A stretch of 52,099 nt of DNA, filler included, from Stramenopiles sp. TOSAG23-2 (lineage: Eukaryota), in NCBI GenBank assembly GCA_900128395.1. It is 3 parts of 3 records of this genome, joined end to end, with 100 filler letters (N's around TTAATTAATTAA, not from the genome) between each part and the next. Parts side by side here need not be neighbours in the genome. Positions count along the whole stretch, not along the records: positions 17,410 to 34,711 come from LT649651.1; 2 more parts are not named here. One strand, given 5' to 3'. A program made the translations under genes and the position numbers. The notes under the pieces were generated by a model. That model did no database searches and was not told the origin of the DNA. It worked only from the letters and a program-made list of their open reading frames with translations. Position 1 is the stretch's first letter; the number at the start of each line of letters is the position of its first letter. Below, piece by piece: positions 30,193 to 32,676 of this stretch.

Positions 30193-32676
30193 ATGTCGGT
30201 TCTTGAAATATTGCCATTTTTAAAAGATCCAAAACCAGAAGTACGTTTAGAAGCTACAAAGCATTTAGCTGGACTTTCTGGTAGTGACGAAGGACGGGAA
30301 GCGTTATTAGCAGTGGATGGGAAAATATTAATACGTTCATTGTCACGTCTAGTTGGCGATTTAGCTCCTGTTTCACAGCAGGCTTTGACAACATTGATTA
30401 ATCTATCAAATGAACCCGAATTAGTAAGTCATATGGTACAAGGTAGTTCATTATTTAATAAAGTTATGGAAAATTTAAAAACATATAATGAAAAAATAGG
30501 TAACAATAAGGCAAAACTACAAATAGAACGTGCAATGCAAGAAGACACGAAAATTCATTTACGTTTGAATTTAATTTTATTGTCAAACTTGTCACAGACA
30601 TCTAGTGGTGCGCTGTGTATGCTGCAAGCTGATTGTGAAAACAGGGATTTAGTTGGATTGAATATATTACGTTTGACAAAATGGTTTTTAACTAGCTCAC
30701 CAAATAGTTATATGCAAATGAAAAACGATAAAGCAACTGCATCAAGTTATGGTGAAGATGAAGATGGTAGCACAAATGCTGTAACTGTTGATGTTCATAA
30801 GGATGACGATGATGAATGGAAGTATGTTGCTGGTATATTAGCAAACATTACCAGATTAAAAGAGGGTCGAGATATCTTAATGGATCGAGAACGGGGTATT
30901 TTACGAAGTTTATTACGTGAATTACATTCAAAAAGTTTAACTCGTAGACAAGGAATTGCGCGAGTTGTCCGTAATATATGCTTTGAAAGGTCAAAAACCA
31001 TGTGGATGATAACAGACATTGATATTAATATTTTATATCATATAATGAAACGTTTGGCCGGGCCCGAACCTGTGAAAGAGGGTGAGGACGATCCATCATA
31101 TCCTGATTTATACGGTGATAATGTAGTACGTGAGAATGATATTTCCATTAGAAAAATTATGGTAGATTCACTTGTCTTGTTAGCAAGTTCATCTAGAAAT
31201 GCACGTGATATTATGAGGAAACGAAAAGTATACCCAATCGTACGTGAGATGCATTCAAATACGGAAGAACGATTGGAGCGTGAGAAACGTGCAAAAGATG
31301 CATCGAAACATCGCGATGCAAATACACAAGTTGCTAAAGTTGGTGATTTAAAAGTTGTTGAAAACAACGAACCAACAAAGTTTGATGAAGCGGTATTTAA
31401 ATTAGTCGATTATTTAATGGGTGATGAAGCGATGGATGATGATGGAACGGAAGTTGCTGCAGGTGATTTAGATGGTACTAAGAAGAATAATAATGAAGGA
31501 CCAGAAATTGAAGTTCTTGATGATGCGAACGAAGAAAAAACTGACGTTGGACAAGAACAACAGAAAATTAAACTTGAAACATCTGAATTGCATCAACATT
31601 TCAAAATGCAAGTAGCAGATGATGATGGTAAGAAAGAAAAAGGGGGAGAGACTTTTGATTGGGGTCCAGGTGAAGACGATGGCGCAAGTAGTAGTGATGA
31701 TGATGATCTTCCAATGATGAAAAATTTAAACGTTGACGAGGATAGTGATGATGAAAATGTTGAAATTACAGACAGTGAAATGAAAAATTCATTAGCAACT
31801 AAACATAAAGATGATGGTAATGAGAGTTACAAAGTTGGGGATTATGACAGAGCCATCGAATGTTATACTCGTGGTATTGAAGTTGATGCTGGAAAAGAAA
31901 TTATGTGTGTATTATATTCAAATCGCTCTGCAGCGTTAACAATCAAACGTCGATGGGTTGAAGCTGAGGCTGATGCTACCACATGTATATCAATAGCTCC
32001 AGATTTTGCTCGTGGTTATTGCCGCTTATCGAAATGTAAAGAAAAACAAGGATATTTAGAAGATGCAATAGGCGTCTTGGAACGTGGTTTAAGAGCATTG
32101 CCTGGAAATGTGATGATCAATGATGCAGTAGATGTATTGATGGTAAAACGTTCGCGATTGGCAGAAAAGAAGAAGACAAGACTGGCAAAATTAAAGAAAG
32201 AGCGTCAGATGGAAAAAGATAAAAAGAAGAAAGCAGCAACAAATAATAATGCTGTTACGACATCCGACACCCCTCCTTCTACTGGTGGCCCATTGAATCT
32301 TAGTGTAGATATGGCAAAAATGAAAAAGGAGGAAATTTTAAATTTGCAAAAATTAGCTGCGAAATATGAAGATACAAAACGCAAACATCGTGAAGCTGGT
32401 ATTTTATTAGAGCGTCAAGTGTATGATAAAAGAAAAGATACAATAGTATTAGATCAAGTGAATGCACTGGATGATAAACATGTTACATATAGATCAATTG
32501 GGAAAATTTATATTAAAGAGCCATTGAATGCGATTAAAAATAAAATAAAAGAAGATATAGATCAACGTGATCAAGAAAGTGTTAATTTAAAAAGTCGTCG
32601 TGAATATTTACAAAAACAATTAGTATCACAGGAAAGTGAATTGAAAGATATTGTCAAAACAATGAATTCAAGGTAG
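30193..32676 (+). CDS. HGH1: Fusion of HGH1 (armadillo-like), an Hsp70/Hsp90-binding-type TPR domain and a prefoldin subunit 1-like domain
   Basis: HGH1 motifs ILANITR..GR, RRQGIARVVRNICF, RENDISIRKI..LVLL and MRKRKVYPIVREMH. TPR motifs KDDGNESYKVGDYDRAIECYT..LYSNRSAA..RGYCR. PFDN1-like TYRSIGKIYI..REYLQKQL..ELKDIV at the C-terminus. One 827-aa ORF. Confidence 0.85.
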   Translation: MSVLEILPFLKDPKPEVRLEATKHLAGLSGSDEGREALLAVDGKILIRSLSRLVGDLAPVSQQALTTLINLSNEPELVSHMVQGSSLFNKVMENLKTYNEKIGNNKAKLQIERAMQEDTKIHLRLNLILLSNLSQTSSGALCMLQADCENRDLVGLNILRLTKWFLTSSPNSYMQMKNDKATASSYGEDEDGSTNAVTVDVHKDDDDEWKYVAGILANITRLKEGRDILMDRERGILRSLLRELHSKSLTRRQGIARVVRNICFERSKTMWMITDIDINILYHIMKRLAGPEPVKEGEDDPSYPDLYGDNVVRENDISIRKIMVDSLVLLASSSRNARDIMRKRKVYPIVREMHSNTEERLEREKRAKDASKHRDANTQVAKVGDLKVVENNEPTKFDEAVFKLVDYLMGDEAMDDDGTEVAAGDLDGTKKNNNEGPEIEVLDDANEEKTDVGQEQQKIKLETSELHQHFKMQVADDDGKKEKGGETFDWGPGEDDGASSSDDDDLPMMKNLNVDEDSDDENVEITDSEMKNSLATKHKDDGNESYKVGDYDRAIECYTRGIEVDAGKEIMCVLYSNRSAALTIKRRWVEAEADATTCISIAPDFARGYCRLSKCKEKQGYLEDAIGVLERGLRALPGNVMINDAVDVLMVKRSRLAEKKKTRLAKLKKERQMEKDKKKKAATNNNAVTTSDTPPSTGGPLNLSVDMAKMKKEEILNLQKLAAKYEDTKRKHREAGILLERQVYDKRKDTIVLDQVNALDDKHVTYRSIGKIYIKEPLNAIKNKIKEDIDQRDQESVNLKSRREYLQKQLVSQESELKDIVKTMNSR

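What the first reader, a model, noticed from the sequence alone, without database searches (positions are those of the whole stretch)
30193..32676. HGH1-TPR-prefoldin 1 triple fusion: a possible single-chain adaptor linking eEF2, Hsp90 and TRiC/CCT
Seen: one stop-free 827-aa ORF with HGH1 (about 30193-31420), an acidic linker, a 3-TPR domain (about 31790-32140) and a PFDN1-like beta-prefoldin domain (about 32320-32670). The TPR keeps carboxylate-clamp-like residues: K and N in HKDDGN, N in YSNRS, and the two Arg of RGYCR. Established: yeast Hgh1 chaperones eEF2, works with the TPR co-chaperone Cns1 and Hsp90, and recruits TRiC; prefoldin delivers clients to TRiC. Inference: three functionally linked modules are fused, so prefoldin here could carry a built-in eEF2 receptor and an Hsp70/Hsp90 dock. 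I do not know of a described protein with this architecture.
Basis: partly seen in the sequence, partly recalled or inferred. Interest (0 to 1): 0.85.

Follow-up and report, generated by a model that had tools for sequence, protein, structure and literature searches.

The report
Conserved HGH1–TPR–prefoldin fusion chaperone gene
A marine protist gene joins three known chaperone modules (an eEF2 chaperone, an Hsp70/Hsp90 docking domain and a prefoldin subunit) in one conserved, expressed protein, which hints that these folding systems work as one hand-over line.

Summary
Window 30193..32676 (+) is one stop-free 827-codon frame; the longest open run in the other five frames is 123 codons. It encodes:
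- HGH1: DUF383 and DUF384, both above Pfam cut-offs.
- An acidic linker.
- A 3-TPR domain. Its five carboxylate-clamp positions align to Hop TPR1 K8/N12/N43/K73/R77 as K/N/N/R/R.
- A basic linker.
- A beta-prefoldin domain. It scores 25.9 bits against Pfam's cut-off of 27.6, but 3 of 3 close orthologues pass. A profile hits human PFDN1 best (E 1.6e-10), and the model is helix-hairpin-helix.

The fusion is not an artefact. Seven database protein clusters in two clades, about 30% identical to each other, keep the same order; one of the seven is truncated. Contigs from poly(A) seawater metatranscriptomes of four studies run collinear across both linkers without joints.

A new point: complete two-domain TPR + beta-prefoldin proteins (246-282 aa) are a wider family, whose Atlas clusters are labelled mostly diatoms and oomycetes. 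HGH1 therefore looks like a later addition to that pair.

The function is inferred, not shown: eEF2, Hsp70/90 and prefoldin/TRiC coupled on one chain. Whether this is the organism's only PFDN1 could not be tested, because no genome is held. I found no paper describing the architecture. It is a new variant of known kinds.

The parts
30193..32676 (+). Whole coding sequence, 827 codons plus TAG stop; no intron
   Evidence: RNA-library contigs are collinear with the genome and show no joints.
30193..31428 (+). HGH1 module (residues 1-412): DUF383 at 123-318 and DUF384 at 326-359. DUF384 ends in the conserved FDEAVFKLVDYL helix (397-408), after a lineage-specific insert.
   Evidence: Pfam. In orthologue P0003 the DUF384 match spans 323-410, model positions 1-52 of 55. 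Yeast Hgh1 6hb1, E 1.5e-12, query 209-359. The helix is conserved in both clades.
31429..31767 (+). Linker 1 (residues 413-525): acidic, with 37 D+E against 10 K+R; predicted disordered; indels between orthologues keep the reading frame
   Evidence: (pLDDT under 50 for 404-525)
31714..31716 (+).
   Evidence: a Met at this site in P0001 and P0003 only, and no Met within 60 residues of the TPR in P0004. RNA-library contigs X12 record 17 (31508-31887) and X1 record 5 (31634-32025) bridge it.
31768..32142 (+). Three-TPR domain (residues 526-650) with carboxylate-clamp residues K539, N543, N577, R607 and R611
   Evidence: Hop TPR1 48.8 bits, RPAP3 TPR2 49.8 bits. Clamp positions are kept in 7 of 7 fusion proteins, allowing R/K exchange.
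32143..32325 (+). Linker 2 (residues 651-711): basic, with 18 K+R against 6 D+E; a predicted long helix followed by a disordered stretch
   Evidence: An in-frame 3-nt deletion variant at 32283 in run X1, and a +A variant at 32186 in one contig of run X12.
32326..32673 (+). Beta-prefoldin domain (residues 712-827): helix, beta-hairpin, helix; PFDN1-like
   Evidence: Pfam Prefoldin_2. Profile against PDB: PFDN1 E 1.6e-10. Model pLDDT 83.2. Foldseek: 1fxk_B and 6nr8_1, target-normalised TM 0.90 and 0.86.
30168..30192 (+). Minimum 5' untranslated stretch seen in RNA-library contigs
   Evidence: X1 record 2 starts at 30168 and X7 record 22 at 30179. Contigs do not define true transcript ends.
32677..32782 (+). 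Minimum 3' untranslated stretch seen in an RNA-library contig
   Evidence: X12 record 21 covers 32422-32782.

Best explanation
This is one intron-less nuclear gene of an AT-rich, gene-dense marine protist. It makes a single 827-residue co-chaperone with three working parts on flexible linkers.

1. An N-terminal HGH1 solenoid. In yeast, Hgh1 binds domain III of the translation factor eEF2.
2. A three-TPR domain of the Hop/RPAP3 type with a complete carboxylate clamp. This kind of domain docks the C-terminal EEVD tails of Hsp70 and Hsp90.
3. A C-terminal beta-type prefoldin domain closest to PFDN1.

Proposed mechanism (inferred). The prefoldin domain assembles with other prefoldin subunits, in the PFDN1 position. 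Both ends of a beta subunit lie at the far tip of its coiled-coil arm (recalled). The TPR dock and the HGH1 client receptor would therefore hang from the tip of one arm, where prefoldin holds clients and meets TRiC. Newly made eEF2, captured by HGH1, would be held next to Hsp70/Hsp90 and to prefoldin/TRiC. Bridges that yeast makes through separate proteins (Hgh1-Cns1-Hsp90 and Hgh1-TRiC) would here be covalent.

Likely history. A two-domain TPR + beta-prefoldin protein came first; it is widespread, with labelled members mostly diatoms and oomycetes. HGH1 was then joined to its N-terminus. The data are compatible with a single such event.

Shown here: the architecture, its conservation, the clamp residues, the beta-prefoldin fold, and its presence in RNA libraries. 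Inferred: every binding step, and membership of the prefoldin hexamer.
For: Single frame: 827 codons open, against at most 123 in the other frames and at most 127 in 1000 shuffles.

Conservation:
- 4 of 4 hits in the full-length search carry PF04063 + PF04064 + TPR + PF01920, at 100, 75, 52 and 49% identity and 804-827 aa. They are collinear, and the larger indels fall in the linkers and one HGH1 loop.
- A second clade has the same order at about 30% identity: P0189 (874 aa), P0191 (974 aa), and P0190 (720 aa, cut off in the first prefoldin helix).

Module identity:
- HGH1.
- TPR: the best natural PDB matches are Hop TPR1, RPAP3, TOM70, SPAG1 and SGT, all EEVD-binding TPRs. The clamp is K/N/N/R/R against Hop K8/N12/N43/K73/R77. 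It is kept in 7 of 7 fusions.
- Prefoldin: Prefoldin_2 scores above cut-off in P0003 (28.2), P0004 (38.9) and P0005 (40.8). The 6-sequence profile gives PFDN1 1.6e-10, archaeal beta 1.6e-7, PFDN2 3.1e-5, PFDN4 0.33 and PFDN6 2.2. JGI names fragment P0040 'prefoldin subunit 1'. The model has pLDDT 83.2 with H23-68, E76-80, E83-87, H89-137. Foldseek's top hits are archaeal prefoldin beta and human PFDN1.

Expression:
- The stretch is held by 20 listed runs, 12 of them recorded as RNA, from 8 studies.
- In 4 of 4 laid poly(A)/oligo-dT runs, contigs lie on the gene at 95% identity or more, with no joints on the gene.
- X1 record 4 (30547-31663) runs from HGH1 into linker 1.
- X12 record 17 (31508-31887) runs from linker 1 into the TPR.
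- X1 record 7 (32009-32499) and X10 record 14 (32065-32552) span all of linker 2.

Variants: of 15 single-base variants in those contigs, 9 are synonymous, 6 change a residue, and none makes a stop. One indel, in linker 2, is an in-frame 3-nt deletion.

Wider family: 6 of 6 tested 246-282-aa proteins start directly with the TPR and end with Prefoldin_2; 5 of the 6 are above cut-off. Atlas clusters with Prefoldin_2 in 97-99% of members plus TPR have 61 and 83 members, commonest Bacillariophyta and Oomycota.

Tree: on a 12-row tree, one branch separates the 6 triple from the 6 two-domain proteins (support 89/96; 88% of 200 bootstrap trees).

Background from papers (passages read):
- Hgh1 bridges eEF2 to Cns1/Hsp90 or to TRiC. 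No direct Hgh1-Hsp90 binding was detected. Whether the TRiC and Hsp90 routes are independent or sequential is open (PMC11651573).
- The Cns1 TPR binds Hsp90 (PMC13049181).
- Hgh1 binds eEF2 domain III and recruits CCT (PMC11002246).
Against: - No binding was tested. No partner sequences from this organism (eEF2, Hsp90, Hsp70, PFDN2-6) were available.
- The window's own prefoldin domain is 1.7 bits below Pfam's cut-off. In clade B it is weaker still: P0191 E 0.011, and P0189 has no hit at E up to 0.1. Clade B also carries a ~17-20-residue insert before the hairpin. A canonical, hexamer-bound PFDN1 is therefore not assured.
- PFDN1 as best PDB hit is not a phylogeny. PDRG1-type prefoldin-like proteins may be missing from the PDB set.
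- No genome is held, so a separate PFDN1, HGH1 or Cns1/TTC4 in the same cell cannot be excluded.
- Contigs cannot prove that single mRNA molecules span the gene, nor exclude an extra internal start. The tool itself warns of this.
- One contig of one run (X12 record 18) has an extra A at 32186, inside an A4 run. It would end the frame at 676 residues, before the prefoldin domain. The other 3 of 4 runs covering that place lack it.
- The full-length model is poor (mean pLDDT 53, pTM 0.28). It says nothing about how the modules sit together.
Confidence: 0.55

Rival explanations
1. The C-terminal domain is a diverged prefoldin paralogue that does not sit in the canonical prefoldin hexamer. It would serve as a coiled-coil oligomerisation or scaffold module. 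One version is a PAQosome-like arrangement, where TPR proteins that bind Hsp90 are coupled to a prefoldin-like module. The protein would then be a multimeric HGH1-TPR co-chaperone of Hsp70/Hsp90 with no direct link to TRiC.
For: - The window copy is below the Pfam cut-off.
- The clade B domain is barely recognisable and carries an insert.
- The TPR matches RPAP3 TPR2 (49.8 bits) as well as Hop TPR1 (48.8 bits). RPAP3 belongs to the R2TP/prefoldin-like complex (composition recalled; titles seen in the reference list of PMC6940843).
- A separate Atlas cluster joins TPR to an alpha-type prefoldin domain in oomycetes (rank 9). TPR-prefoldin pairings are therefore not tied to PFDN1 alone.
Against: - The profile prefers PFDN1 by about 10 bits over archaeal beta and 17 bits over PFDN2.
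- JGI's own label for fragment P0040 is prefoldin subunit 1.
- The predicted fold superposes on human PFDN1 from the TRiC-prefoldin structure (target-normalised TM 0.86, rmsd 2.0 over 104 columns).
Confidence: 0.22
2. The locus makes two products. Besides the full-length protein, an internal promoter or start in linker 1 yields the ancestral-type two-domain TPR-prefoldin protein of about 320 aa. On this reading the fusion is partly a matter of gene packing.
For: - Stand-alone TPR-prefoldin proteins of 246-326 aa are the common form elsewhere.
- A database protein, P0039 (322 aa), begins at the Met homologous to the MKNLNV site of the P0003 lineage.
- Contigs cannot exclude an internal start.
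Against: - The frame stays open through a 113-codon AT-rich linker in every orthologue.
- The Met is not conserved: none lies within 60 residues of the TPR in P0004.
- RNA-library contigs cross the site.
- P0039 may be a gene call cut off by a contig end. P0044 clearly is: it starts with M where P0005 has V.
Confidence: 0.15
3. Artefact: a chimeric assembly, or read-through of neighbouring genes, which is not a real fusion protein.
For: One contig of one run has a frameshifting extra A in linker 2.
Against: - The same open frame is recovered in independent assemblies from several sources: ENA, Logan, JGI, NCBI and EukProt, with 36 member sequences in the 100% cluster alone.
- A second public contig, L001, has 12 substitutions and an intact frame.
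- Seven clusters down to 30% identity keep the order.
- There is no stop and no intergenic spacer between the modules.
Confidence: 0.02

Closest known systems
Yeast Hgh1 / human HGH1 (FAM203), the eEF2-specific chaperone (solved structure 6hb1)
   Same: DUF383 and DUF384 are both above Pfam cut-offs. Direct sequence match to yeast Hgh1, E 1.5e-12. An all-helical repeat is predicted.
   Different: Known Hgh1 proteins are stand-alone, about 350-400 aa. Most HGH1-only hits match the profile only in the HGH1 part. Here about 415 more residues follow, carrying a TPR and a prefoldin domain. DUF384 also has a lineage-specific insert.
Cns1/TTC4, the TPR co-chaperone that links Hgh1-eEF2 to Hsp90 in yeast
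   Same: Three contiguous TPR motifs with an EEVD-type clamp, physically associated with HGH1. In yeast the association is non-covalent (PMC11651573 and PMC13049181, passages read).
   Different: No Cns1/TTC4 C-terminal domain was found among the 13 Pfam families listed at E up to 1 (that domain's Pfam entry is recalled). By sequence the TPR is nearest Hop TPR1 and RPAP3 TPR2, and Cns1/TTC4 is not among the 60 PDB rows shown. It works like Cns1's TPR, but it is not shown to be its orthologue.
Hop/Sti1 TPR1 and RPAP3 TPR domains (carboxylate-clamp TPRs that bind Hsp70/Hsp90 tails)
   Same: 48.8 and 49.8 bits over about 115 residues. Clamp positions are K/N/N/R/R against K/N/N/K/R.
   Different: A single TPR domain, with no DP or RPAP3_C domains. 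There is a 3-residue insert between the first two repeats.
Prefoldin subunit 1 (PFDN1/Gim6), a beta-type subunit of the hexamer that delivers clients to TRiC
   Same: Best profile hit, E 1.6e-10, over 101 of 107 residues. One-hairpin beta topology. Target-normalised TM 0.86 to human PFDN1.
   Different: Canonical PFDN1 is a free protein of about 110-125 aa. Here it is the C-terminal 116 residues of an 827-aa chain. Hexamer membership is untested.
Two-domain TPR + beta-prefoldin proteins (246-326 aa) in public data, with labelled members mostly diatoms and oomycetes
   Same: Same TPR-then-prefoldin order and the same clamp motifs (read by eye; 5 of 6 complete). Atlas feature scores are 0.95 and 0.94 to residues 515-827.
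   Different: They start at the TPR and have no HGH1 part. I found no paper on them.

Membership tests
HGH1 (Pfam DUF383 + DUF384) | DUF383 above Pfam's gathering score | tested here: met
   83.5 bits against 33.2; residues 123-318 cover model positions 10-185 of 188.
HGH1 (Pfam DUF383 + DUF384) | DUF384 above Pfam's gathering score, directly after DUF383 | tested here: met
   38.6 bits against 24.6; residues 326-359. In P0003 the match extends to residue 410, model positions 1-52 of 55.
HGH1 (Pfam DUF383 + DUF384) | Sequence similarity to the solved yeast Hgh1 | tested here: met
   6hb1_A, E 1.5e-12, query 209-359 against chain 186-344. Coverage is partial.
HGH1 (Pfam DUF383 + DUF384) | Binds eEF2 domain III | not testable with these tools
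   No eEF2 of this organism is available. This feature is known for yeast only (PMC11002246 and PMC11651573, passages read).
Carboxylate-clamp (EEVD-binding) TPR co-chaperone domains | Three TPR motifs followed by a capping helix | tested here: met
   Alignment over about 115-123 residues to Hop TPR1 and RPAP3 TPR2. Model helices 527-635, then helix 640-683 (low confidence in part).
Carboxylate-clamp (EEVD-binding) TPR co-chaperone domains | Five clamp residues (Lys, Asn, Asn, Lys, Arg in Hop TPR1) | tested here: met
   K539, N543, N577, R607 (Lys to Arg) and R611. Kept in 7 of 7 fusion proteins, with R or K at the fourth position. The role of these residues is recalled from the Hop literature and mentioned in PMC13049181.
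Carboxylate-clamp (EEVD-binding) TPR co-chaperone domains | Binds Hsp70/Hsp90 C-terminal peptides | not testable with these tools
   No partner sequence was available, so no complex job was sent.
Cns1/TTC4 | Cns1/TTC4-type C-terminal domain after the TPR | tested here: not met
   None of the 13 Pfam families at E up to 1 is such a domain. A prefoldin domain follows instead. The protein is not filed as Cns1/TTC4.
Beta-prefoldin (Pfam Prefoldin_2) | Match to Prefoldin_2 at the gathering score | tested here: inconclusive
   Window copy: 25.9 bits against 27.6, E 1e-5, model positions 1-103 of 106. Orthologues: 28.2, 38.9 and 40.8 bits. Clade B: P0191 E 0.011, P0189 none.
Beta-prefoldin (Pfam Prefoldin_2) | Beta-type topology: two long helices joined by a single beta-hairpin | tested here: met
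   H23-68, E76-80, E83-87, H89-137; mean pLDDT 83.2. The top 10 Foldseek rows are all beta-type prefoldin chains.
PFDN1 orthologue | Closer to PFDN1 than to PFDN2, 4, 6 or archaeal beta | tested here: met
   Profile A2 against the PDB: PFDN1 44.3 bits, archaeal beta 34.6, PFDN2 27.2, PFDN4 14.2, PFDN6 11.6. This is best-hit logic only; no tree with eukaryotic paralogues was built.
PFDN1 orthologue | Sole PFDN1 of the genome and a member of the alpha2-beta4 hexamer | not testable with these tools
   No whole genome is held. No other prefoldin subunits of this organism are available.

The most novel reading that the evidence does not exclude
The fusion is the cell's only PFDN1. In these protists the canonical prefoldin hexamer would then itself carry a built-in Hsp70/Hsp90 dock, as it would in the many organisms with the two-domain form, and here also a built-in eEF2 receptor.

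That would mean prefoldin is a physical relay between Hsp70/Hsp90 and TRiC in general. It would also make prefoldin a so-far unrecognised part of the Hgh1-eEF2 folding route in all eukaryotes: the 'Rosetta stone' reading of the fusion.
Probability: 0.3. Interest if true: 0.78.

Novelty: new variant of a known kind. Interest (0 to 1): 0.6.

Why it matters
Gene fusions of this kind are classic pointers to proteins that work together. Yeast work shows that Hgh1 bridges eEF2 either to Cns1-Hsp90 or to TRiC. It leaves open whether those are separate or sequential routes (PMC11651573, passage read).

Here evolution has tied an Hgh1, an Hsp70/Hsp90 dock and a prefoldin subunit into one chain, and has kept them together across lineages only 30% identical. 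This argues that the routes are physically coupled, and it brings in prefoldin. Only 3 papers in the library co-mention prefoldin with Hgh1. In the one whose passages I read, prefoldin occurs only in the reference list; the other two I saw only as listings.

The wider TPR-prefoldin family suggests a direct Hsp70/90-to-prefoldin hand-over that could be tested in culturable diatoms or oomycetes. If the function is not as proposed, it is still a clean, conserved example of stepwise domain accretion in the chaperone network.

Tried and rejected
- Whole-genome search for a stand-alone PFDN1 or HGH1: not possible, no genome is held.
- Representative-library profile search: the 150 rows listed held no full-length fusion, only fragments (P0039, P0040, P0044, P0162), stand-alone HGH1s and multi-TPR proteins. 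The known full-length proteins themselves were not listed, so this search cannot bound the distribution. It did yield the lead to clade B and to the two-domain proteins.
- Metagenome contig scan: only the near-identical contig L001 and an unrelated TPR locus, L002. No DNA of the diverged orthologues was obtained, so no codon-level selection test across clades was done.
- Search for short stand-alone relatives of the prefoldin domain: 5 hits. P0040 and P0044 are fragments of fusion proteins. P0192 and P0193 (81-85% identical, on contigs of about 630-650 nt) I take to be fragments too. P0194 was not examined. The search needs shared 5-residue words, so finding no stand-alone form is weak evidence.
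- Atlas search with the whole protein: only generic TPR/UNC-45-type clusters; uninformative.
- Full-length structure model: mean pLDDT 53, not used for inter-domain geometry, and no fold search was run on it.
- Parts without RNA-contig cover: none of the 4 laid runs covers 29437-30121, the intergenic stretch upstream.
- Complex prediction: not used, because no partner sequences (eEF2, Hsp90/70 tails, PFDN2-6) from this organism or session were available.
- Lineage: not determined. The Atlas taxon labels (Bacillariophyta, Oomycota) belong to the two-domain relatives and are leads only.
- Literature searches found no paper describing an HGH1-prefoldin, HGH1-TPR or TPR-prefoldin fusion. Searches were: Hgh1 + prefoldin (3 papers); DUF383 or prefoldin (no occurrence of DUF383 in the 15 listed papers); prefoldin + tetratricopeptide + domain fusion (1 paper, seen only as a listing, on ribosomal protein trees by its title); prefoldin + TPR + stramenopile (1 paper, unrelated by the passages read); FAM203/Hgh1/DUF383/DUF384 (238 papers, 25 listed). 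The library lacks most subscription journals. Schopf 2019 and Monkemeyer 2019 were seen only as citations.

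
Full report
**The observation**

Window 30193..32676 (+) is a single ATG-to-TAG frame of 827 codons. The DNA is about 35% G+C. The other five frames of the same 2484 bases hold 18 to 114 stops, and their longest open run is 123 codons. In 1000 shuffles of the sequence the longest open run averaged 54 codons and never exceeded 127. The frame is therefore far from chance.

The gene lies in a gene-dense stretch of long uninterrupted ORFs. 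Upstream, divergent, is a BOP1 ribosome-biogenesis homologue. Downstream, convergent, is a short-chain dehydrogenase. Further off are a formiminotransferase-cyclodeaminase, a Beclin/Atg6 homologue and a calpain-domain giant. This is a eukaryotic nuclear region. No neighbour is a chaperone gene.

**The modules**

Pfam finds:
- DUF383: 83.5 bits (cut-off 33.2), residues 123-318.
- DUF384: 38.6 bits (cut-off 24.6), residues 326-359.
- TPR_2: 33.8 bits (cut-off 27).
- Prefoldin_2: residues 719-821, covering 1-103 of 106 model positions. E is 1e-5, but 25.9 bits is 1.7 bits under the cut-off.

Against solved structures:
- The N-terminal 420 residues match yeast Hgh1 (6hb1, E 1.5e-12).
- Apart from designed consensus repeats, the TPR stretch best matches human Hop TPR1, RPAP3, TOM70, SPAG1 and SGT.
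- The last 138 residues best match human PFDN1 (E 0.0027), with PFDN6 at 0.45.

The residue-by-residue alignment to Hop places K539, N543, N577, R607 and R611 opposite Hop K8, N12, N43, K73 and R77. These are the five carboxylate-clamp positions. Their role is recalled, and it is mentioned in PMC13049181 (passage read).

My domain limits are as follows:

| Part | Residues | Note |
|---|---|---|
| HGH1 | 1-412 | |
| Linker 1 | 413-525 | acidic: 37 D+E, 10 K+R |
| TPR | 526-650 | |
| Linker 2 | 651-711 | basic: 18 K+R, 6 D+E |
| Prefoldin | 712-827 | |

**Is the fusion real?**

Three lines of evidence say yes.

1. Close orthologues. The full-length protein search returned 4 proteins, all of 804-827 aa. 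All carry DUF383, DUF384, TPR and Prefoldin_2, at 100, 75, 52 and 49% identity. They are collinear, and the larger indels fall in the linkers and one HGH1 loop. Their clusters come from ENA, Logan, JGI, NCBI and EukProt assemblies. A second public contig, L001, differs by 12 substitutions and keeps the frame.

2. A distant clade. The fragment P0162 from the representative library led to P0189 (874 aa), P0190 (720 aa, cut off in the first prefoldin helix) and P0191 (974 aa). These have the same order of modules at only about 30% identity to the first clade. The five clamp positions are kept in 7 of 7. The FDE..F.LVD helix that ends DUF384 is kept too.

3. RNA libraries. The stretch is held by 20 listed public runs, 12 of them recorded as RNA, from 8 studies. 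I laid contigs of four poly(A) or oligo-dT seawater metatranscriptomes from four studies on 29300-33400. The results:
   - All four runs cover the gene, with no joints on the gene, so there is no splicing.
   - X1 record 4 (30547-31663) runs from HGH1 deep into linker 1.
   - X12 record 17 (31508-31887) and X1 record 5 (31634-32025) cross the 31714 ATG into the TPR.
   - X1 record 7 (32009-32499) and X10 record 14 (32065-32552) span all of linker 2.
   - Of 15 single-base variants, 9 are synonymous and none makes a stop. One linker-2 indel is an in-frame 3-nt deletion.

Caveats on the RNA evidence:
- These are contigs, which cannot prove single molecules or exclude an additional internal start.
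- One contig of one run (X12 record 18) carries an extra A in an A4 run at 32186. It would end the frame at 676 residues. The other three runs that cover the place lack it.

The candidate internal Met is not conserved. P0004 has no Met in the 60 residues before its TPR.

**The prefoldin domain**

The close orthologues pass Pfam's cut-off, with 28.2, 38.9 and 40.8 bits. A profile of six fusion C-termini (A2) scores as follows against the PDB:

| Target | E-value |
|---|---|
| Human PFDN1 | 1.6e-10 |
| Archaeal beta-prefoldin | 1.6e-7 |
| PFDN2 | 3.1e-5 |
| PFDN4 | 0.33 |
| PFDN6 | 2.2 |

Folded alone with that alignment, the domain gives a confident model: mean pLDDT 83.2, with a long helix, one beta-hairpin and a long helix. 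That is the beta-type topology. Foldseek's best hits are archaeal prefoldin beta (1fxk_B, target-normalised TM 0.90) and human PFDN1 from the TRiC-prefoldin structure (6nr8_1, TM 0.86). The top 10 rows are all beta-type prefoldin chains.

JGI's own label for the fragment P0040 is 'prefoldin subunit 1'.

The domain is therefore a beta-prefoldin, and PFDN1 is its nearest solved relative. Orthology is not proven, because no tree with the eukaryotic paralogues was built. The clade B copies are much more diverged and carry an insert before the hairpin.

**A wider family**

The Atlas search with residues 515-827 gave two clusters at 0.95 and 0.94 in which 97-99% of members carry Prefoldin_2 and most carry TPR:
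- One of 61 members around 326 aa, commonest label Bacillariophyta.
- One of 83 members around 257 aa, commonest label Oomycota.

A third cluster, at 0.86, joins TPR to an alpha-type prefoldin domain.

I then picked the six proteins of 246-282 aa's list that had a TPR match at their N-terminus and two matched stretches. All 6 are complete two-domain proteins: they start at the TPR and end with Prefoldin_2, and 5 of the 6 are above cut-off.

I built a 12-row tree of the TPR-prefoldin part, with 6 triple fusions (P0190 left out as truncated) and these 6 two-domain proteins. One branch separates the two kinds (support 89/96; 88% of 200 bootstrap trees). This is compatible with a single gain of HGH1, or a single loss. 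The root is unknown and the sample is small.

The likely history is that TPR and prefoldin were joined first and HGH1 was added later.

**How it most likely works**

From papers (passages read):
- Hgh1 binds eEF2 domain III and recruits CCT (PMC11002246).
- Hgh1 bridges eEF2 either to Cns1 and Hsp90 or to TRiC. Purified Hgh1 does not bind Hsp90 directly, whereas Hsp90 binds Cns1 or an Hgh1-Cns1-eEF2 complex. Whether the two routes are independent or sequential is open (PMC11651573).
- The TPR of Cns1 is what binds Hsp90 (PMC13049181).
- Prefoldin delivers clients to TRiC (abstracts).

In a beta-prefoldin both termini lie at the far tip of the coiled-coil arm (recalled from the archaeal structure). 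An N-terminal extension would therefore hang where clients are held and TRiC is met.

I therefore read the protein as a prefoldin subunit that carries an Hsp70/Hsp90 dock and an eEF2 receptor on flexible tethers. This makes covalent the bridges that yeast builds from separate proteins. Every binding step is inference. I put 0.55 on this reading.

**Rivals**

- The prefoldin domain is a paralogue used as an oligomerisation or PAQosome-like scaffold, outside the canonical hexamer (0.22).
- An additional internal start yields the two-domain form as a second product (0.15; this is not exclusive of the main reading).
- Artefact (0.02).

**Comparison and novelty**

Each module is a member, or a near member, of a known family. 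The combination is not described in any paper my five searches could find. The library lacks most subscription journals, and I did not read the two primary Hgh1 papers.

The TPR-prefoldin half is already present in public protein collections under automatic names. Only the three-part form is peculiar to the two clades found here.

I rate it a new variant of known kinds, with interest 0.6. It is not a new principle. It is a conserved natural 'Rosetta stone' that links Hgh1 to prefoldin for the first time, and it bears directly on an open question about eEF2 folding routes.

**What stays open**

- The organism's lineage.
- Whether a separate PFDN1, HGH1 or Cns1/TTC4 exists in the same genome (no genome is held).
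- Transcript ends.
- The meaning of the one frameshifted contig.
- All physical interactions.

Noticed in passing
window 37585-39294 (-): Two adjacent ORFs (38455-39294 and 37585-38328) both match Pfam TrAA12-like, at model positions 8-235 and 263-375. They look like one gene interrupted by a gap of about 125 nt, which could be an intron or a frameshift. The genome may therefore not be wholly intron-free.
   Followed up: no
window 30070-30100: An imperfect (TG)n microsatellite lies about 100 nt upstream of the start codon, in the 592-nt divergent intergenic region shared with the BOP1 homologue.
   Followed up: no
window 32186: One RNA-library contig (run X12) has an extra A in an A4 run in linker 2. 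It would truncate the protein before the prefoldin domain. It is absent from the other three runs laid. It could be a strain variant, a slippage or an assembly error.
   Followed up: partly
Atlas cluster, rank 9 (no locus): A cluster of 76 oomycete-labelled proteins of about 460 aa joins TPR repeats to the alpha-type Prefoldin domain (PF02996) in 100% of members. This is a second kind of TPR-prefoldin fusion, so more than one prefoldin subunit may carry an Hsp70/90 dock in that group.
   Followed up: no
window 2510-9673 (-) and 41186-48850 (-): Two giant uninterrupted ORFs (2387 and 2554 aa) have no Pfam family at E up to 1e-8.
   Followed up: no
window 10541-16828 (-) and 22268-26860 (-): A 2095-aa ORF has a calpain protease domain only near its C-terminus (residues 1624-1917). 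A 1530-aa ORF has cold-shock-domain matches. Both are unusually long for those families.
   Followed up: no
(representative library): The profile of the four full-length fusions did not bring back any full-length fusion among the 150 rows listed, although such proteins exist in the other collection. Only fragments of them were listed. That library's answer cannot be used to say the architecture is rare.
   Followed up: partly
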